Positions 24,318 through 41,429 of a DNA stretch of 64,000 nucleotides are shown piece by piece. Below the pieces are notes generated by a model that saw only the letters and a program-made list of their open reading frames with translations, made no database searches and was not told where the DNA came from. This DNA is from an uncultured virus (IMG/VR IMGVR_UViG_3300032019_000120). Taxonomy: Duplodnaviria > Heunggongvirae > Uroviricota > Caudoviricetes. The position numbers were made by a program, and so were the translations under genes. Positions within the stretch are counted from its first letter, which is position 1; each line of letters starts with the position of its first letter. The stretch lies in IMG/VR virus record IMGVR_UViG_3300032019_000120; one strand, 5' to 3'.

Positions 24318-24871
24318 TGAATACTCAAATAATCACTCAACCTAAGTACATGTACACCTTTATTAATAGGTGTGGACAATTAGGATGGAGTAATAATAAT
24401 ACACTAAGGGCTATGAAATGGAAAGACCATACATTTTGGGGTACTTGGATTGATTATGACCTCGCCGCTCTTTCTGGAGTACAACACCTTCCTGAAATAG
24501 GAGACTATACTTACAGATTATTATTCAGGGGAGCTCAGCTTCCAGAATACAATAAGTATTTTAGTACTCCCTCACGATATCATTTTAACTCAATACCATT
24601 CTATGATCACATCATACCCCAGATGGCCCACTGTCCATCTCAAAGCGATTTTGTTATTACAACTAACATGATTAATGATTCATCTGGTCACATGCACCGT
24701 ACCCACAGAGTAATGCAACTGTTGGCTAAGCAGGGGCTGGTTACTTTATTAAGAAATGAAATTTTATATAATACTATACAATCTGTGTGGACGTTAAACG
24801 TAGATTGTTATTTGGAGAAACGATATTATGCAAACATGGAACGAAGCCCGTTATTTGTTCATAACAGCTAA
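24317..24871 (+). CDS. Hypothetical protein, possibly GNAT-fold
   Basis: LAALSGVQH..YRLLFRGAQLPEY pattern is GNAT-like; weak. Confidence 0.35.
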   Translation: MNTQIITQPKYMYTFINRCGQLGWSNNNTLRAMKWKDHTFWGTWIDYDLAALSGVQHLPEIGDYTYRLLFRGAQLPEYNKYFSTPSRYHFNSIPFYDHIIPQMAHCPSQSDFVITTNMINDSSGHMHRTHRVMQLLAKQGLVTLLRNEILYNTIQSVWTLNVDCYLEKRYYANMERSPLFVHNS

Positions 24872-26160: not shown

Positions 26161-26344
26161 AGTGTTTCTCTGTTTCATCCACTATCTTTTTTGCTAATTT
26201 ATATGGCGTAAACACAAACCAAAAAGGAAATATACTATGAATAATCCCCGTGATGACTATCAACACAGCTAAAAAGTTGTAATATGAGGCGTATACTAGG
26301 TGTTTAAAGTACCCTGACTGTATATCCTTTAAATGATTTATCAT
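26132..26344 (-). CDS. Small membrane protein (DUF6356-like)
   Basis: HL....GYFKHL..A, IIHSIFPFWF; has its own minus-strand late promoter. Confidence 0.6.
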   Translation of the reverse strand: MINHLKDIQSGYFKHLVYASYYNFLAVLIVITGIIHSIFPFWFVFTPYKLAKKIVDETEKHFTSYSKKPD

Positions 26345-26349
26345 ACAGA

Positions 26350-26367
26350 TATTTATAAGTATAAATA
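26350..26367. promoter_or_regulatory. Back-to-back late promoters (- 26350-26357; + 26360-26367)
   Basis: TATTTATA-AG-TATAAATA, each 5-6 nt from an ATG. Confidence 0.8.
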
Positions 26368-26373
26368 ATATAT

Positions 26374-26817
26374 ATGAAAACAGAACTTATGGTAGGTCTA
26401 TTAGCGACAAGTATGACACTTTCTGGGTGTTCTATGTTGGGAATGGAGTCTCTGACAACTAAAAATTTGACAAAGACTGGAGTGATGACTGTCGCAGCAT
26501 ATGCTACTGGCGGTGCAATACCAGCATTAGTAGTAGCTGGTTCAGGTATTGCGGTGGATGAAATAATGCCCGCTGATGATTCGGTTACTCAAATTGAAGA
26601 GGGGAATCAAGAACAAATGATAGCTTATATTGCAAATGCAGGTTTAGAGACAATCCTATATGGTGTTATAGGATTTTTATTATTCACAAGTGTTATAGGT
26701 CCTTGGGCAGCTCAGCGAAGGGGCAAGCGCAAGATGAAAGACGAATATCATAGAAAGAAATATGATGAAATGAAAGCAGAATTAAAAATAAGGAGACCCT
26801 CTGATGGAGATAATTAG
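26374..26817 (+). CDS. Lipoprotein with C-terminal transmembrane segment
   Basis: Signal peptide ending in lipobox LSGC; TM ILYGVIGFLLFTSVIGPW followed by a basic tail. Confidence 0.6.
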   Translation: MKTELMVGLLATSMTLSGCSMLGMESLTTKNLTKTGVMTVAAYATGGAIPALVVAGSGIAVDEIMPADDSVTQIEEGNQEQMIAYIANAGLETILYGVIGFLLFTSVIGPWAAQRRGKRKMKDEYHRKKYDEMKAELKIRRPSDGDN

Positions 26818-27379
26818 TTATTTAATCTATGGTGTGGTAATCGGATCAGTTCTATTAGGATTCATTATACATCTATTTGATAAAAAGGTCAAGGTAACGT
26901 ATAACTTTAAATATAAAGTAATGCCAACTGTACAACCGGTTCCTATTCCTACAAAGGGAAAGGGATTTTGGGGAGCACTTATGTTGTGGTTACTTGGTTC
27001 ACGCCAGTGGCAATTAACTAAAGATTGGAAGTATGATATTAATGGTATTATGTATGTTATTCCAAAAGGATTTGTATTTGATGGAGCATCTATTCCTAAG
27101 TTTTTTAGAACATGGTTAAGTCCAGTTGGAGTATTGATGATGGGTGGATTAGTACACGATTACGCTTACAAGTATAAAACAATATTGAAGGCTAATAAGA
27201 AAGACACTATTGGTCCTATTACCCAAAAACATTCTGATCAGTTATTTAAAGACATTAACATTTCAGTAAACGGATTTAGGATTCTCAACTATATTGGCTA
27301 TGCCGCGTTGAGACTTGGTGGATACTTTGCTTGGAGTGGCCACAGAAAACGTAATCTCCGATGGGAAGACTCGGTATAG
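26804..27379 (+). CDS. DUF1353-family protein
   Basis: IPKGFVFDGASIP, LVHDYAY, SDQLF motifs. Confidence 0.8.
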   Translation: MEIISYLIYGVVIGSVLLGFIIHLFDKKVKVTYNFKYKVMPTVQPVPIPTKGKGFWGALMLWLLGSRQWQLTKDWKYDINGIMYVIPKGFVFDGASIPKFFRTWLSPVGVLMMGGLVHDYAYKYKTILKANKKDTIGPITQKHSDQLFKDINISVNGFRILNYIGYAALRLGGYFAWSGHRKRNLRWEDSV

Positions 27380-27382
27380 ATT

Positions 27383-27814
27383 ATGGCTCTCTCAATAGAT
27401 AAACTAGGTGTGTTAGTGGGAGTTGGAGCGGCGTTAGCAGCTTCTATCGGTAACTACTATGTTATGGGAGAAAAGATAAGTGTATTGTCTCAGGAAGTTG
27501 AAATCCTTCGATTTAAAGAGGGATATAATGATAATCATATAAAGAATGAGACCAGTGATAATAAAGCTGATATTGCCGCATTAACAACTGAATTAAGTAA
27601 TCTTAAAATGGCAGCAATGGTGGCGTATGAAAATATGCCTGATAGTTCTGATTTAGAAGATCGAATAACATCATTAACCATTAGGGTAGAAACTTCTGGT
27701 ATAGACAGAATAAGAGAAGAAGTAGAAGAGTTGACACAACAATTTGAAGAAAGAGTTGTGTTGGTGGACGAAATACTAGAATCAATAGAAGATCATATAG
27801 ATGAGTCCAACTGA
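27383..27814 (+). CDS. Membrane-anchored coiled-coil protein
   Basis: N-terminal hydrophobic helix, heptad-rich remainder. Confidence 0.55.
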   Translation: MALSIDKLGVLVGVGAALAASIGNYYVMGEKISVLSQEVEILRFKEGYNDNHIKNETSDNKADIAALTTELSNLKMAAMVAYENMPDSSDLEDRITSLTIRVETSGIDRIREEVEELTQQFEERVVLVDEILESIEDHIDESN

Positions 27815-28124
27815 TTTTAGCATGGATATAGCTGATTTGGTTACGCCATTCATTACTATGATGGTGGGTATCATTATAGCGATGTGGGTGAAAGACCTAG
27901 CTACTAAGATTGCAAAGGGATTAGCATTTAAAGCATTCGGGCCCTTTAAGGAGGGCGATAAGGCTATTATAGATGGCCATCATTGCGTTATAGTTAAAAT
28001 AGGAATGACTATGACAGTGTTAGGGATACAAGCTGAAGATGATTATATGTGGAGATATGTTCCAAATGAGAAAATTGCTGGATTAAAATTAAGTAAGGTT
28101 ATTATCAACGATAGTAAACTTTAA
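27801..28124 (+). CDS. Minimal MscS-like mechanosensitive channel protein
   Basis: TM helix, KDLATKIAKGL, PFKEGDKAIIDG..IVKIG..T and VPNEKI match MscS TM3/beta domain. Confidence 0.65.
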   Translation: MSPTDFSMDIADLVTPFITMMVGIIIAMWVKDLATKIAKGLAFKAFGPFKEGDKAIIDGHHCVIVKIGMTMTVLGIQAEDDYMWRYVPNEKIAGLKLSKVIINDSKL

Positions 28125-28125
28125 T

Positions 28126-28133
28126 TATAAATA
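28126..28133 (+). promoter_or_regulatory. T4-type late promoter
   Basis: Intergenic TATAAATA. Confidence 0.75.
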
Positions 28134-28163
28134 CTACTGATAATAAACTTTTTTAGGATTTCC

Positions 28164-28550
28164 ATGGAAAATCGAATAATTACAATAGAGAAACAACTGT
28201 CATCACTCGAGGCTTCTGTAAAGGGAATTCATTATGATATGCAAAGGGTGAGGAACACTAAGTCGGAATTACCTAGTTGGTTGAGAAATTCAGCCATCGC
28301 TATTCTGATGGCTATTTTTATGAATGTTATAGCTTCTGTGTGGTGGGCTTCTGGTATTACTAATACACAGGAAACACTTATACAAGCAGTAGCAGTTAAC
28401 ACAGAAGAGAGATATGAAGCCGCTGATAAATACCAAGCAATTATGATAGAACTAAATAAATTAACAGTATCATTAAGTCATATGACGGATCAGAATCAAG
28501 CGTTATTAGATGTGATACACAGATCAAATGGAGTAACCTTAGAACAATGA
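28164..28550 (+). CDS. Coiled-coil membrane protein
   Basis: Central TM AIAILMAIFMNVIASVWWAS flanked by heptads. Confidence 0.55.
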   Translation: MENRIITIEKQLSSLEASVKGIHYDMQRVRNTKSELPSWLRNSAIAILMAIFMNVIASVWWASGITNTQETLIQAVAVNTEERYEAADKYQAIMIELNKLTVSLSHMTDQNQALLDVIHRSNGVTLEQ

Positions 28551-28726
28551 AATCACTAAAACAAATCCGCGAAGCTACCGGAGATAAAGAAGCTTACCAA
28601 GCGTTTTTTAAAAAGATGCTAAAGAAATTTAACGTAACAGAGCCAGACCAGTTGGATCCAAAGGACCGCAAAAAGTTTTATGATATGGTAGACGCTGGTT
28701 GGGAAGGAGATAACGAAAATGATTAG
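28547..28726 (+). CDS. 59-aa putative internal head protein (not in ORF track)
   Basis: Hand-translated MKSLKQIREATGDKEAYQAFFKKMLKKF...GWEGDNEND; ATGA overlap with the upstream stop. Confidence 0.65.
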   Translation: MKSLKQIREATGDKEAYQAFFKKMLKKFNVTEPDQLDPKDRKKFYDMVDAGWEGDNEND

Positions 28727-28979
28727 TTTTAAAGAAGCTATTGAGCTCGACGAGAACCTCCAGGGTATTTCGAAAGCCTTATCTAAATTAGCAACCAAGC
28801 CAGAGTATAAGAAGATTAGCAAGAACCTACTATCTTTATCTAAGAGGGCTGCTGAAGGAGGTAAGAAATCTGCAGTACAATTAAGTACTCAACTTCCTAA
28901 ATTAGCACCTAAGGTTGATAAGAAGGCTGGTGCATCATTAGTTAAGATGGGTAAATTAGCTGCAACATACACACGATGA
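28719..28979 (+). CDS. Small basic putative internal head protein
   Basis: MISFKEAIELDE N-terminus; Lys-rich. Confidence 0.55.
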   Translation: MISFKEAIELDENLQGISKALSKLATKPEYKKISKNLLSLSKRAAEGGKKSAVQLSTQLPKLAPKVDKKAGASLVKMGKLAATYTR

Positions 28980-29224
28980 AAACTCTAAAACAACTTAGAG
29001 AACGTGTTGATTGCAGAACGAAAGAGTTCAAGAGTGCAATGAAACGTACTGAAGCTAGGAAATCAAAGAGAGAAACTTCTGAGATGGATGAGATTATGGC
29101 TCGAACAAACAGAGCTATTTTCGGTGAAGACTCAACAATGTCTGCATCAGGTTCTGATTCGACTGGGCCTATTGACATGCCTGATGTTAAGTTAGGAAAG
29201 GTTAAGAAACGGAAGAAGTACTAA
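28976..29224 (+). CDS. Small basic putative internal head protein
   Basis: MKTLKQLRE N-terminus. Confidence 0.55.
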   Translation: MKTLKQLRERVDCRTKEFKSAMKRTEARKSKRETSEMDEIMARTNRAIFGEDSTMSASGSDSTGPIDMPDVKLGKVKKRKKY

Positions 29225-29481
29225 TGCAAACATTTAAAGAAAGAGTTAAAGCTTCACCTGCTACAAAAGCTAAATTAGGCAAGCCTTTAGGAAGAACCGA
29301 TGCTGCAGACATGAAACGTGTAGTGAGAAACATTGTAAGTTCACTAGACCAACTCGCCTGGAAAATGGAAAATCAAATTATATTTGATAAGCCTATTGAC
29401 TCTACAATCAAGAAAATTGACTCTTTAATTAAAGAAGCTAAACTACTAGAAAAAGAACTAAAGCAAACGCTGAAAGTTTAA
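29224..29481 (+). CDS. Small basic putative internal head protein
   Basis: MQTFKE N-terminus; Lys-rich. Confidence 0.5.
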   Translation: MQTFKERVKASPATKAKLGKPLGRTDAADMKRVVRNIVSSLDQLAWKMENQIIFDKPIDSTIKKIDSLIKEAKLLEKELKQTLKV

Positions 29482-29492
29482 TGGAGTAGGCC

Positions 29493-31157
29493 ATGAATAT
29501 TGGTACTGCTGCTAAGAGTTACACATATCTAATACATGACGACCATGTAATATGTAATCCTCAAGATACTGATGTTCGATACGAAACAATTGATGCTGAT
29601 ACTGGTTCCAGTAATGTATTGGTTGGTGGCAATCGAACTCTTAGGGTTACAGATCCATCCGACTCCCATATCTATCAACTAAGTCCTGGTTCAGGATTAG
29701 ACCCAGACTATTGTCCGGTATCTAACACAGCATCTGATGCTATCACACACGTAACATATATCAATGAAGGCTCCCCTAATGTCTATATCAATAATCTCAG
29801 CGTAGCTAGGGAATATGATCAGTATACATGCAGCTCTTATGTTTGGAATGCTGATGAAGACAATAAGGTACACATTAATGATATTGTTCTTGAACCAACC
29901 CTATTAAGGCTAAATTCTGCTGGGTCCATAATACAACCTCAAGTACCTGCAAGACCCCCGACTCCTGTTCCGTCTTTGCCAGAGTACGACAATGCTAAAA
30001 CTCTTCAAACTCAACTTCTGGGCCAGATTATAAGTAATTCTACTGCAAGAGGCATGTTGTATAGAAAAGCAAAGTATGATGCTACAGGTGCCCCAATTGA
30101 TTCGCCATATGTAAGAAACGTTATATACAATACTGCGCGTTCATATTGGTGGTATGAACAAACACAAAATGAACTAATACATGAAATAGATTCTGGTATT
30201 AGATGGGCCAAGGCTAATAGAAACGCTATTATGGCGGATCCGACTTTAATGTTAGGTCGCCTTCCTGATTATAATCATGATGCATGGGATGTTACTGGCT
30301 TTGATACAACCGTTTCTCCTCCAGCATTAACTCTGACATCCGTTCTAACCGGTAACAACGTCGAATTGGAATATGATCCGAATATAGTTGATGAACCTAA
30401 TTGGAATTCATTAAATGATGCAGAGAAGTACTTTCAACTATACATTGATGGCGGCATTATAAACTCTGATACTGGTGGTAGGATTCATAATATAATACAT
30501 GATGTAACAGGAATAAATGTTATAGAATGGAATAATTATGTAAGTAATGTTCTTGGTGTTATTCGAGCAGACTTAAATCACCAAGAAAACAAATGGGGGG
30601 ATTTTGAACCAACAAAAGTGTATGTTAATGTTGTTAAACATATTAATAATGACACAACAGGTGCTGTATTCATAGCTAGTAGTGGTAATAATACAATGGA
30701 CTTAGCTCGGGGTAATCCGCATCCTGGTGATGAACCTTATATGAGAAATGCATTTTTCCATGAAATGGGACACATGCTTAACCCTAATAACTGGAATCTG
30801 TTGGATGCCGCGGAACTAACTTCAGATAACAACTCTTTGGTACAAGTGTGTGGACAATTACACAATAAAGGATATCATACATTAGATGTTTATTATGGAG
30901 GCATGGCTGGATCGTATAGCACAGCACACTTGCAAGGTGAGTTTGCTTGTAGAACATTATCTCTAATGCTGAGCGTTCCTGGATTAACTTTTGAAAATGA
31001 TATCTATCCTCAATTCAATGCAGCAGGATTAAAATTACGAGAATCCACGGTAAAGGATATTGACAAACAGATGTTCAATGCTGGCTTAACCCAACGAGAC
31101 TATTCATCTAGACCTACTACATCAGGCCTATTATCTCCTGTAACATACAGAACTTAA
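29493..31157 (+). CDS. PAAR-like (gp5.4-like) domain fused to a zincin metallopeptidase domain
   Basis: GSSNVLVGG..LRVTD..H and H...INEGSPNVYINNLSVAR..D..C repeats; Pro-rich linker; FFHEMGH...GEFACR. Confidence 0.65.
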   Translation: MNIGTAAKSYTYLIHDDHVICNPQDTDVRYETIDADTGSSNVLVGGNRTLRVTDPSDSHIYQLSPGSGLDPDYCPVSNTASDAITHVTYINEGSPNVYINNLSVAREYDQYTCSSYVWNADEDNKVHINDIVLEPTLLRLNSAGSIIQPQVPARPPTPVPSLPEYDNAKTLQTQLLGQIISNSTARGMLYRKAKYDATGAPIDSPYVRNVIYNTARSYWWYEQTQNELIHEIDSGIRWAKANRNAIMADPTLMLGRLPDYNHDAWDVTGFDTTVSPPALTLTSVLTGNNVELEYDPNIVDEPNWNSLNDAEKYFQLYIDGGIINSDTGGRIHNIIHDVTGINVIEWNNYVSNVLGVIRADLNHQENKWGDFEPTKVYVNVVKHINNDTTGAVFIASSGNNTMDLARGNPHPGDEPYMRNAFFHEMGHMLNPNNWNLLDAAELTSDNNSLVQVCGQLHNKGYHTLDVYYGGMAGSYSTAHLQGEFACRTLSLMLSVPGLTFENDIYPQFNAAGLKLRESTVKDIDKQMFNAGLTQRDYSSRPTTSGLLSPVTYRT

Positions 31158-31167
31158 CGCTAACCTC

Positions 31168-31175
31168 TATAAATA
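31168..31175 (+). promoter_or_regulatory. T4-type late promoter
   Basis: Intergenic TATAAATA followed by a GGAGA ribosome-binding site. Confidence 0.8.
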
Positions 31176-31194
31176 GTTATATTATGGAGAGATT

Positions 31195-32172
31195 ATGTCA
31201 TTAGCTGATATCCAAGTTAAAAAATTCAAAGAAAAGATAAGACACATTGCGGAACGGTTTATAATCGATCCGGAAGTTATCTCTAGTGATATAAAAAAGA
31301 TTGATGATAATATCAAAGATACGGTGAGCTCATTATTTTTTGTTACTACTGATAGTAATCAGGAAAATATGGATATGTTAGATTATCTTCCTGATAGTAT
31401 TGTCTCCTTGGTTGATAAAGCGTTGGAGATTCTTCCTCATGATTGTTTACTAATACAGAATCCAGACTTCTATCTTCCTGTAGATACTGATTTAAAGTTA
31501 ATTATGTCTACTAATGCTATAATGGGAAAATCCACTGCAGGTGATTATGATGAGAGCACTAAAACTCTAAGATTAAACTGGGACAGGGTAACTGACCATA
31601 AGAAGTATGTAACATCATTAATTGAGTCACCAACTGCCCACCCTACTATTGATAGTGGTGGAGGCATACAACTGTTGTCTACTTTGGTACATGAGTATGG
31701 ACATCATATGTGGCATGAGATGGTCCGAATGGCAGATTATAAACAATATAGGTATAAGTATTCAGGCCTCCTTTTGATTGTTCCAAAGGTTGAAGAGGCA
31801 TTCAAACTGTCAGGAGTGGCAGCACCACCGGTCGATCCACTCGCTCCACCAGTACTCACTGAGATACAAGAAAAAATGGATGCGGACCTCTACCACAATC
31901 TTTGGAAAGCTTTTCATGATGATATTCAAATAGAGTTCTCAGTAGTCGGTGCGAAGGACGGAGAGGACAATGATTTATATGATGATGATCAGAAAGTGTC
32001 TGAGGTAATGGCAAGAATGAGATCTGCTGCCTCCCTACGAAACTATTACAAAGACCTTGATGATATGTTCGATAGAGATTTTAATGTTCATGATATTATG
32101 TATCAAGAGTCTATAAATTTCTTTGATGCATTTATTTGGGGTTATGCTGCTGACGTACGGAGGTACAAATAA
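31195..32172 (+). CDS. Zincin-like metallopeptidase protein
   Basis: AGDYD..TLRLN, TLVHEYGHH, downstream SEVMAR. Confidence 0.65.
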   Translation: MSLADIQVKKFKEKIRHIAERFIIDPEVISSDIKKIDDNIKDTVSSLFFVTTDSNQENMDMLDYLPDSIVSLVDKALEILPHDCLLIQNPDFYLPVDTDLKLIMSTNAIMGKSTAGDYDESTKTLRLNWDRVTDHKKYVTSLIESPTAHPTIDSGGGIQLLSTLVHEYGHHMWHEMVRMADYKQYRYKYSGLLLIVPKVEEAFKLSGVAAPPVDPLAPPVLTEIQEKMDADLYHNLWKAFHDDIQIEFSVVGAKDGEDNDLYDDDQKVSEVMARMRSAASLRNYYKDLDDMFDRDFNVHDIMYQESINFFDAFIWGYAADVRRYK

Positions 32173-33833
32173 TGGCTTATCAATCTGCAAACAATCCTCA
32201 ATTTAAACCTCCTATATTAGATAATTTACTTCCTCGCGGACGGCATCATACACATGCGCATCTTAGAAATGACGTTATCAATGAACTGCAGTCACTTAAT
32301 TGGAGTGCTACTAACGATGGTAAATTAACTCCTACTCAATTCTTCGATGATTTTTGGCAGCCTGTGAGGCTCCAAGAGATTGATGAGGGCTTAGCTAATC
32401 ACAGGGGGTTCATGCCCCAAGTTAGGAATACAATATTAACGGATACACACATAAATCCTTTTCAAAATGGCCATTCTAATCAAACCACATTTGAACAAAT
32501 GGCCCAGGATAATTTGGGGTTGGCATCGCATGCTGTTGAAACTGCACGATTACAGGACGAGGAGATCACTCGTCTTGAAAACTCATTTAGCGCTACTGTC
32601 GATCAATTTCATCCAATAGTCAATGGTGTTAGAACTACATGTGGTTCTGGACAAGACTTGATAAATATTTTGCAGGCGCGAGGTTCTAGCACACAACATA
32701 TTAACCCAACAAATTACTATAGTTGGAGTATTAATTTTAACGGTAGGGCAAATTCAAATGATGGGATATGCAGACAGATTAAAGTAATGCCATCAGGCAA
32801 TTCGTTTACTATTTTTACTATAGCATTTGAGTACTCGTATCGATACGCTGAAATGATTGTAGATCCCCTGTTATTAACATCATCTCAAGTTATCGATTTG
32901 ATACTAGATGATATTGACAACATAGGGGGTAGTGTAGACTGGGGTGAAATCCTGCAGACTTTTCAAAGATGCAATGCCAACATGAGGGACCTTCCTATTC
33001 TAGCTGTTGATCAATATCAAGAAAGTGCAGGTATGTATGCAGCTGATCAAGGGCGGGCATCTGTCTTTGGTGTCGTAAGCCAACCCGCCTATTCTATTTC
33101 AGCTATTGTACATAATCTGACCCCAGGAGCACATCGGCCTAAATTATTCCCCTTTTCCCGTCATACGCATGGTTTTTTTAATTTTCATACATTTGTGCAT
33201 GAGGTGATTGGTCATGCTGGTAGTGGAACTATTGAATCTACCGGACAAGAGCAAATATGGTCGAAGACGTCGATAGCAAATAATAACCATTGGATAACAG
33301 TAGCAGAGACCTTTTTTGGTAAAACATATATTATGGGAACGTGGATGAATACACCAACACAGAACATACTATACCCGAATGGAACGTCCCAGTCACTAGA
33401 TAAATGGTATTTTCATTTAGCGAGCTTACGTATGGGCATGGTGGCAGGCGTCTATACAGTGGATAACATGTTGGAAGAGTTTTTATGTAGAGTATTGGGT
33501 ATGCTTATAATCAATAGAGGTGCAACATTTGCTGATAATATACTTCCAGAAATAAATAGGAAATTAAGTGCTAATCGTCCTAACAAAATTATCGATAGAG
33601 GATTTGGCCACTTAGTTGATGCTCAGCTGAAAAAATCTGGATTGAAAAATCGAGGTGCATACTATGCAACCAATCAGCATGGTGCTCTATTAGATATGCC
33701 TAACTCAGAAGATGTTGAACTATTAATGGCAAGGGCTGCATTAGGAACAACGAGCTCCACTAAAAGTGAAGTGGCATGGGCCATACAAATAAAACAAGAA
33801 CAAGATGCTGGTGGGGATAACTATAATGTCTAA
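32172..33833 (+). CDS. Zincin-like metallopeptidase protein
   Basis: AGMY, TFVHEVIGH, EEFLCRVLGMLIINRG. Confidence 0.6.
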   Translation: MAYQSANNPQFKPPILDNLLPRGRHHTHAHLRNDVINELQSLNWSATNDGKLTPTQFFDDFWQPVRLQEIDEGLANHRGFMPQVRNTILTDTHINPFQNGHSNQTTFEQMAQDNLGLASHAVETARLQDEEITRLENSFSATVDQFHPIVNGVRTTCGSGQDLINILQARGSSTQHINPTNYYSWSINFNGRANSNDGICRQIKVMPSGNSFTIFTIAFEYSYRYAEMIVDPLLLTSSQVIDLILDDIDNIGGSVDWGEILQTFQRCNANMRDLPILAVDQYQESAGMYAADQGRASVFGVVSQPAYSISAIVHNLTPGAHRPKLFPFSRHTHGFFNFHTFVHEVIGHAGSGTIESTGQEQIWSKTSIANNNHWITVAETFFGKTYIMGTWMNTPTQNILYPNGTSQSLDKWYFHLASLRMGMVAGVYTVDNMLEEFLCRVLGMLIINRGATFADNILPEINRKLSANRPNKIIDRGFGHLVDAQLKKSGLKNRGAYYATNQHGALLDMPNSEDVELLMARAALGTTSSTKSEVAWAIQIKQEQDAGGDNYNV

Positions 33834-36800
33834 TCCAGTTAATCCAAGTACAAATGTAAACCAAGCATTAATTGCTTATGGCACCCAACAAAGATTAGAA
33901 GACTTAAATGATACTCAAAGAGCAATCGTTCACTCTGTAATCCGCGAAGTACATGGTCCTCAGAATGAATATGTAATTGCTATTGAGGAGCCAACGTTAA
34001 AGGACTATATTGAAAAGCGTATAGACCTATACAATGAAGGGGGTTATGGCTCAGAAAATAAACTAGTTGAATTACAACCAGCAAATAGATGGTCAGAAGC
34101 CTCTGTTAAGGATACTCCAAATTTCAACAACGTGATAGCATTTGATGCTGCTATCTTAGGTACAGATTCTAAAATAGATGGGTTACCTATACTCCATATT
34201 GATACACAAGAAGCCTTAAACTCATTCTTGGGTGGTGATTATATGGAGACCGTTGAGGGCGAACTAAAAGTAAGATGGTCAGATTTGGATAGGGTTTTCT
34301 GTGGCATTTCAATACATGTTGAAATGAGTGATATCCCTTATCTAGCTAATGTGGGTATTAAGCAAGGAAACATATACATCTTCCACCCCCACGTAAATAA
34401 ACTTTGGGACATACTAGCTTCGTCTGAACCAGCAATCTATAGATTTACAAAAACAGCTGAGTTCCAAACTAAACCTTTATCAGAAATTGAGTATGATAAT
34501 ATATTAACTAATGGCAATTCTAATCGCAAACTAATCGCTGATATAACCGCTCAAACTTTAAGAAACAAATTAGTAAATGTTAACAATCTTGAGTCGCTGA
34601 CAAACCCTCAACAACCAAGCCAGGTTGCTAAAGAGATATTAACTAAGAACCTTGAAATGATTGATATTACATCCGCCGCCGACAAGTTCTCTCAGGGAGT
34701 TGATCATAAGTTATGGCGTGTTATGGATCCACGTTACCTTGATTGGGCTGAAGATACTAAAATGGGAACGGTTGATGTTGAAGAGTACTCTAGGTTCGAT
34801 ACCATACACAAGTTGTTTCTTCAATCTGACTATGACATGGCTGTTGAGATGAGAGAGCTGTTTTTAAAACCCGGTGTTGTTGAAAATTCAATTCTAGCTG
34901 GGCCCATTGATAATACTCCTGACGCGATTCGTGATTATTTATCAGATGGTAATTTAGCTGAGTTTATGAGGAATTTAGACAGTTTGGCAAGTCCAATGGA
35001 GGTTATGGACACCATCAAAGATAATGCATCTCAATTTGCTCTTGGCTCGTCAGTAGGTGATGACCATCTATACGAGAAATTGGTGAATCGATTAGGGAAT
35101 ACTTCTATAGAAGATACAGAATATATAATCTTTGGTGATAAAGATAAAATATTGTGGAAAAAATATGCCAACCAAAAAATCTACGTACCATCAAACATCG
35201 CAAACTTTTCGCGAATCGAATTTACAGCACACTATGATCCGGATCTCGGAAGAATGTTTGATTTCGGCTTTATTAAGAAACGATCACTAGAGTTTCACTG
35301 GGAATCTGATATTACCAGGGAACAGATGGTGGCTAGAGAAAGGCATGCTGTCATGCAGCTGGAATACCATCTATATACTAGAGTGCTTAAAGATTATAGT
35401 GGATTACTGTCATCTCAATTATATTCAGATGGTGTATTTGCACGTCAAAGATTCTTCGATTACATGTGGGCGTCCGGAAAGTTTGATGAAATGGATGCTA
35501 CTGTATTTCGATCAGACTTCATTCATGATAACCACGAGATTACTACTATTAATCAACTAGTGGATGATGCTTATACTGCAGGTGCTATAGCTAGCTCATT
35601 TTCATCATATCGCGATGGTGTTGGTGATATTGAATTAACTAATGGATTGATAGGGAAAGTAGTTGAAGGTGCAAGCATTGTAGAGGACGCTGCTGGGAAT
35701 CCCACTAGAATTAATGGCGCCGAACTGAAAAAGAGATATCTCACAACAGGAAGCATATTTGCAAATGGTAAACGACTAGCTTATGTGAATGCTAGTATGG
35801 CTAAGCGTGGTAAAGATGATCCCGCGTTTCTTTCTAGTTTTGACTACGCCGACGCTGATGGAGAACCACATGTCTTCGTACTACAAGACTCTATTAGGCC
35901 TCATGTAAAATTATCTCCACGAGAATATGTCCATAGAAGATTTAATGATGACCTCATGATTATTACCGCGGCACAAAAAGCTGAGGATTTTCTTGATACT
36001 CTTTCTGACGAAGAAAAAAACAAAGCTTCATTTTTTGACAAAATAAACGAGGAGTTGCTTCTACTAACTGTGGAAGAATTAAAGGAGCATCCACACTGGA
36101 GCTACTACTACAACCAGACGATTGCAGATATTAACTTAGGAGTAACAGAAAGAACATCTAAAACCCAACTAGAGCAAATGGGAATTCGTGTGATGGAGAA
36201 AGTAACCGAACTTGATTCAGATCGAGTAATTTACTTTGATGTTGATCATTGGATATACGCTCAAGATGATTACGAGCAAAGAATGAGTGATAGGAAAAAA
36301 GGGGCTGGTGCATCAATAACATATGAGATTATGGATAGGGGTACATCTCATGAGAAGCTTGTTATTTCTAGTATTATGGTGGGAAATTCACCTGACAAGA
36401 GGTTGCAAGGTAAGGGTATATTCCTTTTAGAAATGCTAGCTAAGGTAGAAGGCCATATCATGAAGATTGATACAGGCTCCTTAACTCCTGATGGAGCAGC
36501 ACTTTTTGCTGGCTGGATTAGTCATATCAAGAAACATAATAGATGGCATGAGTTTCCTTGGTTTAGTAGTGGAGCTCAAATAAGACAATTAGGAATTGCG
36601 ATTGACGGGACAGGCAGTAACGTGCCGCGAGGTGCAATTTATAATAATGTTAATATGGCTACACTTGATTTTCAAATTCACCCGTTGGCCACATATATCC
36701 CGATGTCTGAATGGAGAAAACAAATCATGACATATGACACTCCATATTATGGAGTAAGAGCCCTTCCGATGGATGATTGGCAACTAAATCCTGACACCAA

Positions 36801-39771: not shown

Positions 39772-39781
39772 GGATGCTAAT

Positions 39782-41428
39782 ATGATTATCGAAATCCCTG
39801 AAAAAATTACTTTTTGTGAGTTCGCTGGACACAAGCATACTATCAAGGATGATAGTTTCTTAATAGTAGATATGTTAGCAAACTACATAGTGGAACATCA
39901 ACGTCTGTGGTATGGTGCATTGCAAGATCAAGGGACAACCAACTTAACCATGAGAATGAATTGTAGATGGATGGCTCTATCAATCTATCAGTATACATCT
40001 CATTATGACTTTTCTGATTCAAAACATGAAGGGAGAGTTAAAAAAATTCTCGATTGGCACCAGATGGATAAGACCTCTACTTATTACAATCAATGTGTAG
40101 ACGTATCCAGCGTGTCTGAAGTAGGAGTAAAGCTAGCTGCTATACTGGTATCATTATACTTTGATGATCCAAAATCGACAGGGTGGAATGATTTATCAGA
40201 TTATGGTATTGGTGGATATATGTATGAACGAGCAGCCGCTGTAATAACAAAGGGCACTTGGTATGAAATGACCTTTACATGTAATCCAGCATCTGTTCTA
40301 ACTGATTATAATGATTATAGTATATATGACGCCCCAAGGTTCCCATATCAACACTCATTGTATGAAGTATATCTTCATCAGGCAGTAGACTTATTAGTTG
40401 ATAATATTAATTGGAAAGTGTTAACACCTGATGATATGAGAACGTATTATAAATTCGGATACACTGACGTAACTGATTTATTTATTCCTGTAATTGAAAA
40501 TACTTTACAATTTAAGATGGGTGACAAGTATGGCATTATGGAACATATGTTTAACAGATTACCAGCTGATGGCTCTTTAACTCCGACCTCTGTTTTTAGA
40601 AGCATGCAGGGAGATTATGTAATGTTGATGGACTCTGATACAATAACAATACCAGACCATATCCATTCTCATGTCATGATGCACATGAAGGCTTCCCTGA
40701 AGATAAGCATAAGGAAATCAGAGGCTGATCCAAAAGAATTATTGGATGTAGTGTTTCCTTATATGTTAGAAAATTTAGGAAATAAGGAGGTTGGATTATA
40801 TTTTTATGCAATCGCTAGCCAAGATAGAGGAGAACAACTACAACTGCAGATTACTCCCGCGGGAGGCCAGATACGTCAACATAATATTCCGATGAACTGG
40901 GATAATGCATCTTGGCACTTGATAGGAGTAGATGATAAACTGATTGTACTGGATCCAAATACATTTCGTTTATCTATGAGGGGAGCAACACACAACTTGA
41001 TTACCTTAGGATATTTCGGACCAAATAGTCAGGATATCATAGACAAAATAGATTCTGATAATAAACTTGACTTGATTGTTACAGAAGCTGGAAAAGACCC
41101 ATTAACAGAATATCATACTAAGTATGAAGTTGATCACACAGAAGCGTTTTTATATGATAGAGTTAAGCGCAATATCGATCCAATAAATAGAACAGGAAAG
41201 TATTGGTATGAGATGATGAATGTTCCTGCAATCAATCCAACCGGATTTGCCTTACTTGGTGGTGTGGCACAGGACGCAGAACGATCTATAAATATTGCTG
41301 TTGGAGGATTCTATACTTATGAAGGAGAAAAATTCCTTGAAGCACTTGTCCATGAAATTGGTGGTCATTTTATTAACGACCCTGATGATGCCACAAGCAT
41401 TTGGGGCACCCACAATATCGAAATATAA
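39782..41428 (+). CDS. Hypothetical protein ending in a zincin motif
   Basis: ALVHEIGGH lies ~20 aa before the stop; AAGGA RBS before ATG 39782. Confidence 0.6.
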   Translation: MIIEIPEKITFCEFAGHKHTIKDDSFLIVDMLANYIVEHQRLWYGALQDQGTTNLTMRMNCRWMALSIYQYTSHYDFSDSKHEGRVKKILDWHQMDKTSTYYNQCVDVSSVSEVGVKLAAILVSLYFDDPKSTGWNDLSDYGIGGYMYERAAAVITKGTWYEMTFTCNPASVLTDYNDYSIYDAPRFPYQHSLYEVYLHQAVDLLVDNINWKVLTPDDMRTYYKFGYTDVTDLFIPVIENTLQFKMGDKYGIMEHMFNRLPADGSLTPTSVFRSMQGDYVMLMDSDTITIPDHIHSHVMMHMKASLKISIRKSEADPKELLDVVFPYMLENLGNKEVGLYFYAIASQDRGEQLQLQITPAGGQIRQHNIPMNWDNASWHLIGVDDKLIVLDPNTFRLSMRGATHNLITLGYFGPNSQDIIDKIDSDNKLDLIVTEAGKDPLTEYHTKYEVDHTEAFLYDRVKRNIDPINRTGKYWYEMMNVPAINPTGFALLGGVAQDAERSINIAVGGFYTYEGEKFLEALVHEIGGHFINDPDDATSIWGTHNIEI

Positions 41429-41429
41429 T

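What the first reader, a model, noticed from the sequence alone, without database searches (positions are those of the whole stretch)
29493..31157. PAAR spike-tip domain fused to a metallopeptidase: a T6SS-style specialised PAAR effector in a phage
Seen: the first ~130 aa show PAAR-like repeats (GSSNVLVGG..LRVTD..H; H...I.EGSPNVYINNLSVAR..D..C) with His/Cys candidates for metal binding, then a Pro-rich linker and a C-terminal HEMGH...EFACR zincin. Known: T4 gp5.4 is a stand-alone PAAR capping the gp5 spike, whereas PAAR-toxin fusions are typical of type VI secretion. Inference: the tail spike may deliver a protease into the host envelope or cytoplasm at infection.
Basis: partly seen in the sequence, partly recalled or inferred. 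Interest (0 to 1): 0.85.

Follow-up and report, generated by a model that had tools for sequence, protein, structure and literature searches.

The report
Phage spike-tip protein carrying zincin-like domain
An uncultured marine T4-like phage encodes a tail spike-tip (PAAR) domain joined in one protein to a previously unclassified domain that looks like a zinc protease, so the phage may push an enzyme into its host's envelope when it infects, though neither the enzyme activity nor its place in the virus particle has been shown.

Summary
ORF 29493-31157 (+, 554 aa) has an N-terminal PAAR domain (Pfam 31.6 bits, cut-off 27; three PAAR-like motifs), a Pro-rich linker, and a C-terminal region with HEMGH (423-427) and Y475/E483-F-A-C-R487.

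The C-terminal region matches no Pfam, PHROG, NCBIfam or PDB sequence. Profile-profile comparison nevertheless puts it as close to gluzincins (MtfA/M90, YpfJ type) as those families are to each other. HExxH and the Glu helix co-align with MtfA's zinc ligands. Both AlphaFold runs failed (pLDDT 29 and 36), so the fold is unproven.

The family is very rare: three lineages among 1.84 billion representative proteins. The gene lies in a late-promoter-bearing cluster beside paralogous HExxH proteins and a 1988-aa protein, upstream of gp13-gp23. It is not beside gp5/gp25/gp6, which are outside the window.

The more distant homologue has no HExxH at the aligned site.

In 79 phage PAAR ORFs from IMG/VR, 3 carry large enzyme extensions (PAAR-M15 peptidase twice, PAAR-CHAP once), each next to a gp5 without lysozyme. 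Enzyme-armed phage tips therefore exist.

Verdict: a real PAAR fusion and a new variant of a known kind. Virion location, activity and target are untested.

The parts
29493..31157 (+). Whole gene, 554 aa: PAAR domain, Pro-rich linker, unknown middle region, zincin-like C-terminal module
   Evidence: ORF list; GGAG 8 nt upstream of the ATG; the same architecture in P0002 and P0004
29493..29888 (+). PAAR domain, residues 1-132. Three PAAR-like motifs: GTAAKSYTYLIH (4-15), NRTLRVTDPSDSH (47-59), NLSVAREYDQYTC (101-113). Three GSxxVxxN-type strands: 38-47, 92-101, 122-130. H59, H86 and H127 are invariant in the 3 known lineages.
   Evidence: Pfam PF05488 at 31.6 bits against a cut-off of 27; phrog_281; alignments A4 and with the HTVC008M stand-alone PAAR; PDB profile hits 4jiw_D and 6ox6_A; NCBIfam T6SS_PAAR_dom only 18.6 bits against a cut-off of 124
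29937..29981 (+). Pro-rich linker PQVPARPPTPVPSLP (residues 149-163)
   Evidence: Sequence; poorly conserved in P0002
29988..30689 (+). Middle region, residues 166-399, no recognisable family. Conserved only in P0002.
   Evidence: No Pfam, PHROG or PDB hit; absent from the P0004 alignment
30690..31154 (+). Zincin-like C-terminal module, residues 400-554. The last ~110 residues form the module shared with P0003, P0004 and the paralogues at 32172-33833 and 41295-43190.
   Evidence: phmmer hits; own HMM; hhalign against M90, YpfJ-type and DUF4157 families
30759..30773 (+). HEMGH (H423, E424, H427): predicted zinc ligands and catalytic base
   Evidence: aligned to the HExxH of the M90 family; HEMAH in P0002; not present at the aligned site of P0004
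30915..30953 (+). Y475 ... E483-F-A-C-R487: predicted Glu helix (third zinc ligand). Y, E and R are invariant in 9 of 9 aligned segments.
   Evidence: Alignment A5; aligned to PAEFFAV of M90, whose Glu is the zinc ligand E211 of MtfA (PMC13482132)
28126..28133 (+). TATAAATA, the nearest T4-type late-promoter-like site upstream. The PAAR gene is probably co-transcribed with the five small genes 28164-29481.
   Evidence: gene spacing; a gp55-like late sigma factor is encoded at 58537-59109
31168..31175 (+). TATAAATA between the PAAR gene's stop and the next gene (start 31195)
27383..29481 (+). Seven small genes conserved and syntenic with the P0004 locus (143, 107, 128, 59, 86, 82 and 85 aa)
   Evidence: BLASTP between the window and L002; synteny
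31195..32172 (+). Paralogue, 325 aa: HEYGH (166) and EVMAR
   Evidence: ESM Atlas leads to zincin families
32172..33833 (+). Paralogue, 553 aa: HEVIGH (343; six-residue variant) and EEFLCR (436). Its residues 414-494 are homologous to residues 461-535 of the PAAR protein.
   Evidence: BLASTP E 2e-8
33805..39771 (+). Giant 1988-aa protein of unknown family. A 2248-aa protein occupies the same position in L002.
   Evidence: no detectable similarity between the two giants
39752..41428 (+). 558-aa protein ending with HEIGGH (534)
41295..43190 (+). 631-aa ORF (likely start ATG 41319, with TATAAATA at 41287) that carries the C-module with NEFMSR (335) but no HExxH at the aligned site
26804..27379 (+). 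DUF1353 / phrog_1158 ('tail assembly chaperone') gene, syntenic in L002

Best explanation
The gene encodes a late-expressed spike-tip protein of a marine T4-like myophage.

Proposed mechanism, each step marked shown or inferred:
1. Residues 1-132 form a PAAR cone. The domain assignment is shown by sequence; the fold is inferred.
2. The cone caps the blunt end of the phage's trimeric gp5-type beta-helix. This is inferred from what PAAR domains do in T4 and in T6SS.
3. A Pro-rich tether links the cone to a ~390-residue cargo.
4. The last ~155 residues of the cargo are a gluzincin-like domain. The predicted zinc ligands are H423, H427 and E483, with E424 as catalytic base and Y475 and R487 as conserved helpers. 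The motifs and their co-alignment with MtfA/M90 are shown; fold, metal binding and activity are inferred.
5. On sheath contraction the tip with its cargo is driven through the outer membrane into the periplasm. There the domain cleaves an envelope or periplasmic substrate, most plausibly a cell-wall peptide or an envelope protein, to ease tube passage or condition the host. This step is inferred.

The gene belongs to a conserved but fast-evolving cluster of paralogous HExxH/E-x-x-x-R proteins and a giant protein. These may be further virion-borne or injected proteins.
For: PAAR domain:
- Pfam score above the curated cut-off and a PHROG match.
- Three motif repeats that align with the 99-aa stand-alone PAAR of Pelagibacter phage HTVC008M.
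- The only two PDB hits of the N-domain profile are 4jiw_D and Tas1. That both are PAAR proteins is partly recalled; the literal PAAR motifs are visible in the printed alignment.

Phage and late context:
- The window carries gp13, 14, 15, 16, 17, 18, 19, 20, 21, 22, 23, UvsY, UvsW and gp55 homologues. The major capsid protein is 54% identical to that of HTVC008M.
- TATAAATA occurs 20 times against 11.1 +/- 3.05 expected; 1 of 100 shuffles reaches 20.
- By my reading, 11 of the 15 + strand sites lie 11-74 nt upstream of an ORF start. These include gp13, gp18 and gp20, the operon that holds the PAAR gene (28126), and the next gene (31168).

Zincin-like cargo:
- H, E and H are invariant in 5 of 5 paralogue segments at 12-27% identity (A3).
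- Y475, E483 and R487 are invariant in 9 of 9 segments (A5).
- hhalign P-values against known zincin families are 0.0023-0.0079 for M90, 2.1e-4 to 0.01 for the YpfJ-type Zn_peptidase and 0.008-0.11 for DUF4157.
- Controls: the PAAR negative control gives 0.75-0.97. The bona fide zincin families score 0.005-0.12 among themselves. None of 30 column shuffles reaches the observed score.
- In the w554+P0002 against M90 alignment, HEMGH lies on HExxH and GEFACR on PAEFFAV. The Glu of that motif is MtfA's zinc ligand (H148, H152, E211: PMC13482132). The spacing is 60 residues here and 63 in MtfA.
- ESM Atlas nearest named clusters for two paralogues both include ATLF, M90 and Mx1. Scores are 0.87-0.92, so these are leads only.

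Precedent in phages, found here:
- 3 of 79 measurable PAAR ORFs from IMG/VR have extensions of more than 200 aa.
- L043 and L045 are PAAR + Peptidase_M15_3 (E 1.7e-18). L056 is PAAR + CHAP (E 1.5e-4, under the cut-off).
- Each lies between a 318-334-aa gp5 and gp25/gp6. That gp5 has the OB domain but no lysozyme family.

Precedent in T6SS: metallopeptidase domains grafted on VgrG or PAAR act in the periplasm (PMC6899460).

The fusion is real: independent homologues and bridging contigs.
Against: - No structure. AlphaFold2 gave pLDDT 29.1 (full length, 4 rows) and 36.0 (residues 165-554, 9 rows). Neither the PAAR nor the zincin fold is confirmed, and I ran no fold search.
- No Pfam, PHROG, NCBIfam or PDB-sequence hit for the C-region, even at E<=10. 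The hhalign probabilities are only 5-46%.
- The distant homologue P0004 has TGQDG where w554 has HEMGH, in the alignment EPYMRNAFFHEMGHMLNP / ELYMRWPFTGQDGSCMNP. The 631-aa paralogue has HTEEE there. Two of the five carriers of the well-conserved C-module thus lack a proximal HExxH, so the conserved role of the module may not be catalysis.
- Three paralogues have HExxxH instead of HExxH.
- The gene is not next to gp5, gp25 or gp6, unlike the stand-alone PAAR of HTVC008M and the PAAR-enzyme fusions of L043 and L056. Those baseplate genes lie outside the 64-kb window, and no whole genome is held. A second, canonical PAAR may therefore exist.
- No virion proteomics.
- Presence in an RNA-labelled run does not show transcription.
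Confidence: 0.5

Rival explanations
1. It is an additional or alternative PAAR protein and its C-terminal module is not an enzyme. The phage has a canonical ~100-aa PAAR next to gp5 outside the window. This protein caps either a fraction of spikes or another trimeric fibre, for example one formed by the neighbouring giant protein. The shared C-terminal module is a degenerate zincin-derived domain used for assembly or docking among the cluster's proteins.
For: The C-module is shared by three proteins of the cluster and by P0004. HExxH is missing at the aligned site in P0004 and in the 631-aa paralogue. The order PAAR protein, two mid-size proteins, giant protein recurs in L002. In relatives the canonical PAAR sits between gp5 and gp25, a position not seen for this gene.
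Against: In w554 and P0002 the full set H-E-x-x-H, Y and E-x-x-(A/C)-R is intact and spaced as in MtfA. H, E and H are invariant in 5 of 5 very divergent paralogue segments, which is hard to explain without a metal site. No second PAAR was found in the 64-kb window by my own HMM.
Confidence: 0.25
2. The zincin-like domain acts on the phage's own proteins. It would be an autoprocessing or 'releasing' peptidase that frees the cargo or matures tail or baseplate proteins, rather than attacking a host substrate.
For: In polymorphic toxins and PVC systems most metallopeptidase domains of one type are releasing peptidases (PMC3482391, passages). Uncharacterised zincin-like peptidases have been proposed for virion maturation in jumbo phages (PMC7824862, passages). 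Several paralogues sit side by side among probable structural genes.
Against: No cleavage-site evidence. A PAAR anchor places the domain at the very tip, outside the baseplate, which is an odd place for a maturation enzyme. The phage PAAR fusions found here carry cell-wall hydrolase families, not maturation proteases.
Confidence: 0.1
3. The protein is not part of the virion. It would be a moron or host-takeover protein whose PAAR domain exploits a host contractile system or acts inside the infected cell.
For: PHROGs files phrog_281 under 'moron, auxiliary metabolic gene and host takeover'. The cluster lies next to a large island of metabolic-type genes at 2540-26160.
Against: The gene has the same strand and tight spacing as the structural genes, with T4-type late-promoter motifs around it. 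It directly precedes gp13-gp23. The only established role of PAAR domains is to cap a spike (PMC12407873, PMC8651086, passages).
Confidence: 0.07

Closest known systems
T4 gp5.4 and other stand-alone phage PAAR spike tips (e.g. the 99-aa ORF of Pelagibacter phage HTVC008M at 30815-31114)
   Same: A PAAR domain with three repeats and conserved His/Cys candidates for the apex metal site. It occurs in a T4-like phage and in a late-gene context (the gp5.4 metal site of 3 His + 1 Cys is from PMC12407873, passages).
   Different: It is 554 aa instead of ~100 aa and has a 420-residue C-terminal extension. It is not adjacent to gp5/gp25/gp6, is only 25% identical to the HTVC008M PAAR (A6), and has a 25-residue insertion (60-84) inside the domain.
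T6SS specialised effectors: a metallopeptidase (DUF4157 / Tpe1 / VgrG2b C-terminal type) grafted on VgrG or PAAR
   Same: N-terminal PAAR plus a C-terminal HExxH domain. The expected site of action is the periplasm. The toxic domain would be harmless in the producer's cytoplasm (PMC6899460, passages).
   Different: The context is a phage genome, not a T6SS locus. No Pfam PF13699 hit, and hhalign against a DUF4157 alignment is the weakest of the three zincin comparisons (P 0.008-0.11). No small immunity-like gene was recognised downstream.
MtfA / Peptidase M90 and the anthrax-lethal-factor-like (ATLF) gluzincins
   Same: HExxH, then a Tyr and a Glu-Phe-x-(Ala/Cys) helix 60 residues later, against 63 in MtfA. 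Both motifs co-align over 151 columns. MtfA's ligands H148, H152 and E211 are from PMC13482132. ESM Atlas leads to ATLF, M90 and Mx1 arose for two paralogues.
   Different: No significant HMM hit to PF06167 or PF07737. hhalign gives P of only 0.002-0.008 (probability 5-13%). A conserved Arg follows four residues after the Glu instead of M90's FAV..E.FF. The YpfJ-type Zn_peptidase scores slightly better around the HExxH helix, so the placement within the clan is open.
Phage PAAR-peptidoglycan-hydrolase fusions found here (L043/L045: PAAR + Peptidase_M15_3; L056: PAAR + CHAP-like)
   Same: Uncultured T4-like phages with a PAAR N-terminus and an enzyme-type C-terminal extension.
   Different: Those are 323-369 aa and carry well-known cell-wall hydrolase families. 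They sit in the canonical slot gp5 - PAAR - gp25 - gp6, next to a gp5 without lysozyme. The present protein is longer, carries an unclassified zincin-like module, and sits in a separate paralogue cluster.
MuF-type polymorphic toxins of temperate phages
   Same: A phage particle protein that carries a variable C-terminal toxin or enzyme domain.
   Different: That carrier is a head protein (MuF), not the spike tip. I saw only the search listing and the first lines of the abstract of PMC5576092. ESM Atlas structure rows for the 325-aa paralogue include MuF+M48 clusters, all below the naming bar.

Membership tests
PAAR domain (Pfam PF05488 / PAAR-like superfamily) | Significant match to the family model | tested here: met
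   31.6 bits against the curated cut-off of 27, E 2e-7. phrog_281 E 1.3e-6. P0004: phrog_281 E 1.6e-9 and PF05488 at 23.3 bits by hmmscan, or 27.9 bits in the genome search.
PAAR domain (Pfam PF05488 / PAAR-like superfamily) | Three PAAR-type motifs that give pseudo-threefold symmetry | tested here: met
   GTAAK (4-8), NRTLR (47-51) and LSVAR (102-106), each next to a GSxxVxxN strand. They align with the three repeats of the HTVC008M PAAR and with the two PAAR motifs of 4jiw_D.
PAAR domain (Pfam PF05488 / PAAR-like superfamily) | Apex metal site (3 His + 1 Cys in gp5.4) | tested here: inconclusive
   H59, H86 and H127 are invariant in the 3 lineages. The Cys candidates (C21, C74, C113) are not conserved in P0004. 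There is no model to check geometry.
PAAR domain (Pfam PF05488 / PAAR-like superfamily) | Cone of three beta-hairpins (fold) | tested here: inconclusive
   The AlphaFold2 model has pLDDT 22-27 over residues 1-140. No fold search was run on it.
PAAR domain (Pfam PF05488 / PAAR-like superfamily) | Binds the tip of a trimeric gp5/VgrG beta-helix | not testable with these tools
   No gp5/gp27 homologue in the window and no whole genome held.
T4 gp5.4-type stand-alone spike tip | About 100 aa with no further domain | tested here: not met
   554 aa. The median of 79 phage PAAR ORFs is 98 aa.
T4 gp5.4-type stand-alone spike tip | Encoded beside gp5 and the baseplate genes | tested here: not met
   The neighbours are small unknown genes and HExxH paralogues. 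In HTVC008M, L043 and L056 the PAAR gene abuts gp25/gp6, and in L043 and L056 also gp5.
T6SS specialised PAAR effector | N-terminal PAAR fused to a C-terminal effector-type domain | tested here: met
   Architecture.
T6SS specialised PAAR effector | T6SS gene context / T6SS-type PAAR equivalog | tested here: not met
   Phage structural context. NCBIfam T6SS_PAAR_dom scores 18.6 bits against a cut-off of 124.
T6SS specialised PAAR effector | Effector domain of a known toxin family (e.g. DUF4157) | tested here: not met
   No Pfam hit at E<=10. hhalign P 0.008-0.11.
Gluzincin metallopeptidase (clan MA; M90/ATLF-like or YpfJ-like) | HExxH on the active-site helix | tested here: met
   HEMGH 423-427, and HEMAH in P0002. 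Helix predicted there in both low-confidence models. Not met in P0004 at the aligned site.
Gluzincin metallopeptidase (clan MA; M90/ATLF-like or YpfJ-like) | Third ligand Glu in an E-x-x-A type helix downstream | tested here: met
   E483-F-A-C lies 60 residues after H423. E is invariant in 9 of 9 segments. It is aligned to the PAEFFAV Glu of M90, which is E211 of MtfA.
Gluzincin metallopeptidase (clan MA; M90/ATLF-like or YpfJ-like) | Significant sequence-model match to a curated family | tested here: not met
   No Pfam or NCBIfam hit. The PDB profile's best zincin hit is 2qr4 (M3B) at E 0.83.
Gluzincin metallopeptidase (clan MA; M90/ATLF-like or YpfJ-like) | Profile-profile similarity to zincin families above background | tested here: inconclusive
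   P 2.1e-4 to 0.01 (YpfJ type) and 0.0023-0.0079 (M90), against 0.75-0.97 for the negative control. None of 30 shuffles reaches the score. This is as good as zincin families score among themselves, but probabilities are only 5-46%.
Gluzincin metallopeptidase (clan MA; M90/ATLF-like or YpfJ-like) | Zincin fold; zinc binding; peptidase activity | not testable with these tools
   AlphaFold2 failed. Activity needs an experiment.

The most novel reading that the evidence does not exclude
The whole block 27383-43190 is a phage-borne 'effector arsenal' organised like a T6SS effector island. A PAAR-anchored zincin would ride on the spike tip. Three or four paralogous zincin-like proteins and a ~2000-aa protein would be loaded in or on the tail and injected with it. 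A lytic T4-like phage would then deliver a set of fast-evolving enzymes into its host at the moment of puncture. The downstream proteins of the two known loci share no detectable similarity.
Probability: 0.15. Interest if true: 0.85.

Novelty: new variant of a known kind. Interest (0 to 1): 0.62.

Why it matters
PAAR tips that carry effectors are a hallmark of bacterial type VI secretion. Phage PAARs have been described as stand-alone; Iyer et al. 2021 (PMC7824862, passages read) say so for jumbo myophages.

A phage tip with a covalently attached enzyme-like domain would show that phages also arm the very first part of the virion that enters the host. Together with the PAAR-M15 and PAAR-CHAP fusions found here beside gp5 genes that lack lysozyme, it points to a general rule: the wall-degrading or envelope-modifying activity of the T4 spike can move from gp5 to the tip protein and be exchanged.

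The C-terminal module is also a new, very rare zincin-like family with a paralogue expansion. That makes it a tractable model for how phages diversify envelope-attacking enzymes, and a possible source of new lytic enzymes.

The gene recurs almost unchanged in many seawater metagenomes, so the phage is not a one-off.

Tried and rejected
Structure:
- Both AlphaFold2 jobs gave unusable models: pLDDT 29.1 for the full length with 4 rows, and 36.0 for residues 165-554 with 9 paralogue rows.
- I therefore ran no fold search, which would have been meaningless, and no complex prediction, since no cognate gp5 is available.

Deeper alignments could not be had:
- The search for homologous proteins found 2 proteins among 8000 scored candidates, and the same 2 with profile A1.
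- For residues 1-140 among shorter proteins, 16 candidates were scored and none passed.
- Exhaustive phmmer found 3 of 1,835,955,588 representatives.
- IMG/VR scans with the protein found nothing. With A1, 55 pattern matches gave 1 relative. With A4, 228 matches gave 1 relative on the same contig.
- In the metagenome scan, 40 matches gave 1 relative, which is 98% identical to L002.

Sequence libraries:
- blastn and tblastn of the gene against 50,697 phage records gave no match. The 553-aa and 1988-aa neighbours likewise gave none.
- Pfam on nine C-domain segments at E<=10 found nothing relevant.
- The PDB profile of the paralogue alignment gave only non-significant hits: nitrile hydratase E 0.26 and M3B peptidase E 0.83.
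- hhalign with the trimmed A5 alignment and with the C-module alone against M90 gave no signal (P 0.37 and 0.54).
- An ATLF profile could not be built, because only 1 of 301 genomes had a match.

Other points:
- Idea rejected as unsupported: that the 558-aa and 631-aa ORFs are one gene split by a frameshift. A TATAAATA sits right before the second ORF. This remains open.
- Sigma-70-like promoters (65 against 71.9 expected) and terminators (9 against 8.6) in 26000-44000 are not above chance.
- The two giant proteins show no internal repeats and no mutual similarity.
- Expression: contigs of an RNA-labelled run cover most of the region. The tool warns that DNA can be present in such a run, so I draw no conclusion. 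Parts without contig cover in that call mean nothing.
- Literature searches (terms PAAR / bacteriophage / gp5.4 / metallopeptidase; PAAR / cyanophage; PAAR / phage / spike tip / C-terminal extension) listed no paper that describes a phage PAAR fused to an enzyme. I looked only at the listed titles and abstracts and at passages of the papers cited. Subscription journals and bioRxiv supplements are not covered.
Full report
**1. What is at the coordinates**

The ORF 29493..31157 (+) exists as described: ATG start, 554 aa. A GGAG lies 8 nt upstream of the ATG, and only 11 nt separate it from the preceding gene.
- GSSNVLVGG...LRVTD...H59
- EGSPNVYINNLSVAR...C113
- the Pro-rich stretch 149-163
- HEMGH at 423-427
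- EFACR at 483-487

**2. What genome this is**

PHROG scans of the window's larger ORFs found a T4-type late module downstream: gp13, gp14, gp15, gp16, gp17, gp18, gp19, gp20, gp21, gp22 and gp23, a second tube-like protein, UvsY, UvsW and a gp55-like late sigma factor. The first ORF of the window is a tail-fibre protein.

The major capsid protein is at most 54.5% identical to any of 2603 matching phage records. The best are Phage C48C1, Pelagibacter phage HTVC008M (Kyanoviridae) and the Melnitz phages. No whole genome is held for the window.

The 1665-bp gene is found nearly unchanged in public seawater and marine metagenome runs. Of the 24 runs listed, from 24 studies, 10 hold at least half of the sampled words.

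**3. The N-terminal domain is a PAAR domain**

- Pfam PAAR_motif scores 31.6 bits against a curated cut-off of 27.
- phrog_281 ('PAAR motif') matches residues 35-132.
- NCBIfam's T6SS PAAR equivalog matches only weakly, 18.6 bits against a cut-off of 124. This is therefore a PAAR domain but not the T6SS type.
- Read against the 99-aa stand-alone PAAR of HTVC008M, the domain has the canonical three repeats. The PAAR-like motifs are GTAAK (4-8), NRTLR (47-51) and LSVAR (102-106). Each lies beside a GSxxVxxN strand, and there is a 25-residue insertion at 60-84.
- A profile of the three known N-domains (A4) found exactly two PDB sequences at E<=10: 4jiw_D (E 0.008) and Tas1 6ox6_A (E 0.027). In the printed alignment the literal PAAR motifs of 4jiw_D lie under the two repeats of the query.
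- That 4jiw is the PAAR protein c1882 and that Tas1 has an N-terminal PAAR domain is my recollection. The T4 preprint PMC12407873 (passages read) names c1882 as a T6SS tip protein.
- H59, H86 and H127 are invariant among the three lineages. T4 gp5.4 binds its apex metal with three His and one Cys (PMC12407873). The Cys candidates here are not conserved in P0004.
- The fold itself could not be checked, because AlphaFold2 gave pLDDT 22-27 over this part.

**4. The fusion is real and rare**

| Search | Result |
|---|---|
| Word-indexed search, 5.8 billion clusters | Self plus one homologue: P0002, 556 aa, 79% identity, HEMAH and EFAAR |
| Exhaustive phmmer, 1,835,955,588 representatives | 3 hits at E<=0.001: self, a 100-aa fragment (P0003) and a 1119-aa protein (P0004) |

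- P0004 is encoded on a 29-kb IMG/VR contig (L002) and on a 98%-identical metagenome contig (L003).
- P0004 matches the query twice. The PAAR parts match at 30-129 against 106-192 (32% identity, E 1e-10). The C-terminal parts match at 414-552 against 947-1117 (29% identity, E 2e-12).
- The N-PAAR / C-module architecture is thus conserved across large divergence.
- Contigs of two further runs (X2 record 3, 29780-30899; X4 record 17, 29773-30270) bridge the PAAR/linker/C-region junction with 0-1 differences.

**5. Genomic context**

The locus is syntenic between the window and L002. The shared order is:
1. phrog_19883
2. a DUF1353 / phrog_1158 gene
3. a set of small genes: the 107-aa protein is 59% identical, the 128-aa protein 33%, and three small window genes are one 302-aa ORF in L002
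4. the PAAR protein
5. two mid-size proteins
6. a giant protein (1988 aa in the window, 2248 aa in L002)

The proteins downstream of the PAAR gene share no BLAST or phmmer similarity between the two loci. None matches Pfam, PHROGs or the phage collection.

The T4 late-promoter consensus TATAAATA (established knowledge for gp55-dependent promoters) occurs 20 times against 11.1 +/- 3.05 expected. By my reading, 11 of the 15 + strand sites lie 11-74 nt upstream of an ORF start. These include gp13, gp18 and gp20, the gene at 28164 that heads the run of genes ending with the PAAR gene, and the gene right after it (31168). Sigma-70-like promoters and terminators are not enriched.

I conclude that the gene is late-expressed together with structural genes. 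This is an inference from motifs and position, not from expression data.

The gene is not beside gp5, gp27, gp25 or gp6, and none of these is in the window. In HTVC008M the single PAAR match in the complete genome is a 99-aa ORF directly upstream of the gp25- and gp6-like genes. My own PAAR HMM found no second PAAR ORF in the 64-kb window, but more than half of the genome is unseen.

**6. The C-terminal region**

No library recognises it:
- Pfam (E<=1 for the whole protein, E<=10 for nine C-domain segments of the paralogues), PHROGs and NCBIfam gave nothing.
- PDB sequences gave nothing with the protein and only non-significant hits with a paralogue profile.

The sequences themselves are telling. 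Every mid-size protein of the two clusters has a hydrophobic-HExxH or HExxxH motif:

| Protein | Motif | Position |
|---|---|---|
| w554 (the PAAR protein) | HEMGH | 423 |
| 325-aa neighbour | HEYGH | 166 |
| 553-aa neighbour | HEVIGH | 343 |
| 558-aa protein | HEIGGH | 534 |
| P0004 | HEVGGH | 698 |
| L002 489-aa protein | HEWVH | 312 |
| L002 453-aa protein | HELLH | 272 |
| L002 240-aa protein | HELMH | 104 |

- In an alignment of five paralogue segments at 12-27% identity, H, E and H are the only invariant columns (A3).
- A second motif, Tyr then 7-17 residues then E-[FVI]-x-x-R, is invariant in 9 of 9 aligned segments (A5).
- An HMM of the last ~110 residues finds the PAAR protein, P0004, the 553-aa neighbour and the 631-aa ORF (E 6.5e-8 in that small database).
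- Five- and six-residue zinc motifs are known to coexist in one family, DPP III / M49. For this I saw only the search listing and the start of the abstract of PMC5805324.

**7. Is it a zincin?**

Both AlphaFold2 jobs failed (pLDDT 29.1 and 36.0). Both low-confidence models nevertheless place helices over HEMGH and over E483-R487.

I therefore compared profiles. I built family alignments from natural sequences:
- M90/MtfA: 30 loci from 59 of 301 genomes with a match, plus E. coli MtfA
- DUF4157/eCIS_core: 27 segments
- YpfJ-type Zn_peptidase: 30 segments

hhalign P-values:

| Query alignment | vs M90 | vs Zn_peptidase | vs DUF4157 | vs PAAR (negative control) |
|---|---|---|---|---|
| A3 (5 paralogues) | 0.0079 | 4.5e-4 | 0.11 | 0.97 |
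| 7-paralogue alignment | 0.0023 | 2.1e-4 | 0.008 | 0.86 |
| w554 + P0002 | 0.0023 | 0.01 | 0.044 | 0.75 |

- In the same test the true zincin families score 0.005-0.12 against each other.
- None of 30 column-shuffled versions of A3 reaches the observed score against M90 (maximum 15.6 against 25.5).
- Probabilities stay low (5-46%).
- Two other query versions, the trimmed A5 and the C-module alone, gave nothing.
- In the w554+P0002 against M90 alignment, HEMGH lies on the family's HExxH and GEFACR on its PAEFFAV. MtfA binds zinc through H148, H152 and E211 of HEXXH and EXXA and is classed as a gluzincin (PMC13482132, passages). The His-to-Glu spacing is 63 there and 60 here.
- The ESM Atlas gave, for residues 165-554 and independently for the 325-aa paralogue, nearest named clusters that include ATLF, Peptidase_M90 and Peptidase_Mx1. 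For the paralogue it also gave LPD1, YpfJ-type and MuF+M48 rows. Scores are only 0.87-0.92 and all rows are below the naming bar. These are leads, not tests.

Taken together, I rate 'zincin-like gluzincin domain of an unclassified family' as likely (about 0.65) and 'active peptidase' as open (about 0.45).

**8. Evidence against a catalytic reading**

In P0004 the segment that aligns with EPYMRNAFFHEMGHMLNP reads ELYMRWPFTGQDGSCMNP. Its only HExxxH lies 346 residues upstream of its E-F-M-A-R. The 631-aa ORF has HTEEE at the aligned site.

Two of the five carriers of the strongly conserved C-module (w554, P0002, the 553-aa paralogue, the 631-aa ORF and P0004) therefore lack a proximal HExxH. The module's conserved role may then be structural, with only some members remaining enzymes. 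HExxH conservation between w554 and P0002 says little at 79% identity.

**9. Are enzyme-carrying PAAR tips known in phages?**

- Iyer et al. (PMC7824862, passages) state that PAAR proteins of jumbo myophages are stand-alone, 'unfused to any effector domain'.
- A survey of 47,625 PAAR proteins found 0.36% viral (PMC8651086, passages).
- My three literature searches listed no phage PAAR-enzyme fusion. Their limits are given under Tried and rejected.

I then sampled IMG/VR with a PAAR alignment headed by the HTVC008M protein. There were 226 confirmed loci, of which the best 80 were kept. This sample is biased towards that lineage.

Of 79 measurable ORFs (one is cut by a contig end), the median length is 98 aa:
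- 4 are 131-141 aa.
- 8 are 154-156 aa.
- 3 have C-terminal extensions of more than 200 aa.

The three long ones are:
- L043 and L045 (323 aa, one lineage): PAAR + Peptidase_M15_3 (E 1.7e-18).
- L056 (369 aa): PAAR + CHAP (E 1.5e-4, 22.6 bits, under the cut-off of 26).

In L043 and L056 the gene order is gp5 - PAAR-enzyme - gp25 - gp6. That gp5 is only 318-334 aa, with a Gp5_OB domain (E 5e-31 and 2e-30), a weak C-terminal beta-helix match, and no lysozyme family at E<=0.1.

So in some uncultured T4-like phages the wall-degrading enzyme appears to sit on the tip protein instead of on gp5. This makes an enzyme-armed tip plausible for the present phage. It also lowers the claim of uniqueness.

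Two earlier notes of this scan describe related arrangements: a protease-bearing partner next to a PAAR gene, and a GH10 enzyme fused to a gp5.1-family protein. I did not test them.

**10. Mechanism and verdict**

Most likely (0.5): this is a late-made spike-tip protein. Its PAAR cone caps the gp5-type spike, and its tethered zincin-like cargo is carried through the outer membrane into the periplasm at sheath contraction. The periplasm is where the P2 spike ends up (PMC12407873) and where T6SS spike-borne metallopeptidases act (PMC6899460).

The main rival (0.25) is an additional PAAR protein with a non-catalytic, zincin-derived assembly module. It could cap another trimeric fibre of the cluster. 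Lesser rivals are a self-processing peptidase (0.1) and a non-virion protein (0.07).

The thing is a new variant of a known kind: PAAR-effector fusion is known from T6SS, and here it occurs in a T4-like phage with an unclassified zincin-like family and a paralogue cluster. The decisive data are the full genome, a real structure, virion proteomics and an E424-dependent activity.

Noticed in passing
window 7283-26160 (+ strand, with 8694-9350 on the - strand): A ~19-kb island with at least seven radical-SAM-like ORFs, four ORFs with a weak C-terminal match to a QueC-like PHROG family, two AMP-binding (adenylating) ORFs, a TauD-family dioxygenase and a weak Asp/Arg-hydroxylase-like ORF. It looks like a biosynthetic or modification gene cluster inside a T4-like phage, and several TATAAATA sites precede its genes.
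   Followed up: no
window 3691-5118 (-): A full-length TctA-family tripartite tricarboxylate transporter large subunit (PF01970, E 2.3e-91) encoded in the phage. It lies on the opposite strand, beside four ORFs (one with a weak tRNA-methyltransferase-like PHROG match, three with no family match).
   Followed up: no
window 39752-41428 and 41295-43190: The 558-aa ORF ends about 20 residues after an HEIGGH motif. The next ORF overlaps it by 134 nt in another frame and carries the E-F-x-x-R module but no HExxH. Together they resemble the P0004 layout, where HExxxH lies ~350 aa before E-F-x-x-R. A TATAAATA at 41287 suggests two separate genes, with ATG 41319 as the start of the second.
   Followed up: partly
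window 27383-29481; L002 4519-7157: Seven small genes conserved with the P0004 locus. By eye, three have a hydrophobic helix (143, 107 and 128 aa). The L002 counterpart of the 107-aa protein has a weak MscS beta-domain match. The 59-, 86- and 82-aa genes, with similar N-termini, form one 302-aa ORF in L002.
   Followed up: partly
L043 2026-3963, L045, L056 1819-4101: IMG/VR T4-like contigs in which a 318-334-aa gp5 (OB domain, no lysozyme family) is followed by PAAR + Peptidase_M15_3 or PAAR + CHAP-like, then gp25 and gp6. The wall hydrolase appears to have moved from gp5 to the tip protein.
   Followed up: yes
L002 7163-10519 (P0004): The 1119-aa PAAR protein starts with a literal PQAAR motif, followed by a ~100-residue Cys-rich insertion before the rest of the PAAR domain. 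Between residues ~770 and 1000 it has about four copies of a short Cys-containing repeat (T-K-x-x-C-E-x-x-G...W) (read by eye).
   Followed up: no
L057-L063, L070 (154-156 aa); L046, L047, L053, L065 (131-141 aa): Twelve of 79 phage PAAR ORFs have short C-terminal tails of 35-60 residues, Thr/Ser/Gly-rich or ending in Cys-containing motifs, with no family match.
   Followed up: partly
window 29493-31157 in public runs: The gene occurs nearly unchanged in seawater and marine metagenome runs of many studies: 10 of the 24 listed runs hold at least half of its sampled words. Contigs of one RNA-labelled run cover most of 28000-33900. The tool warns that this does not show transcription.
   Followed up: partly
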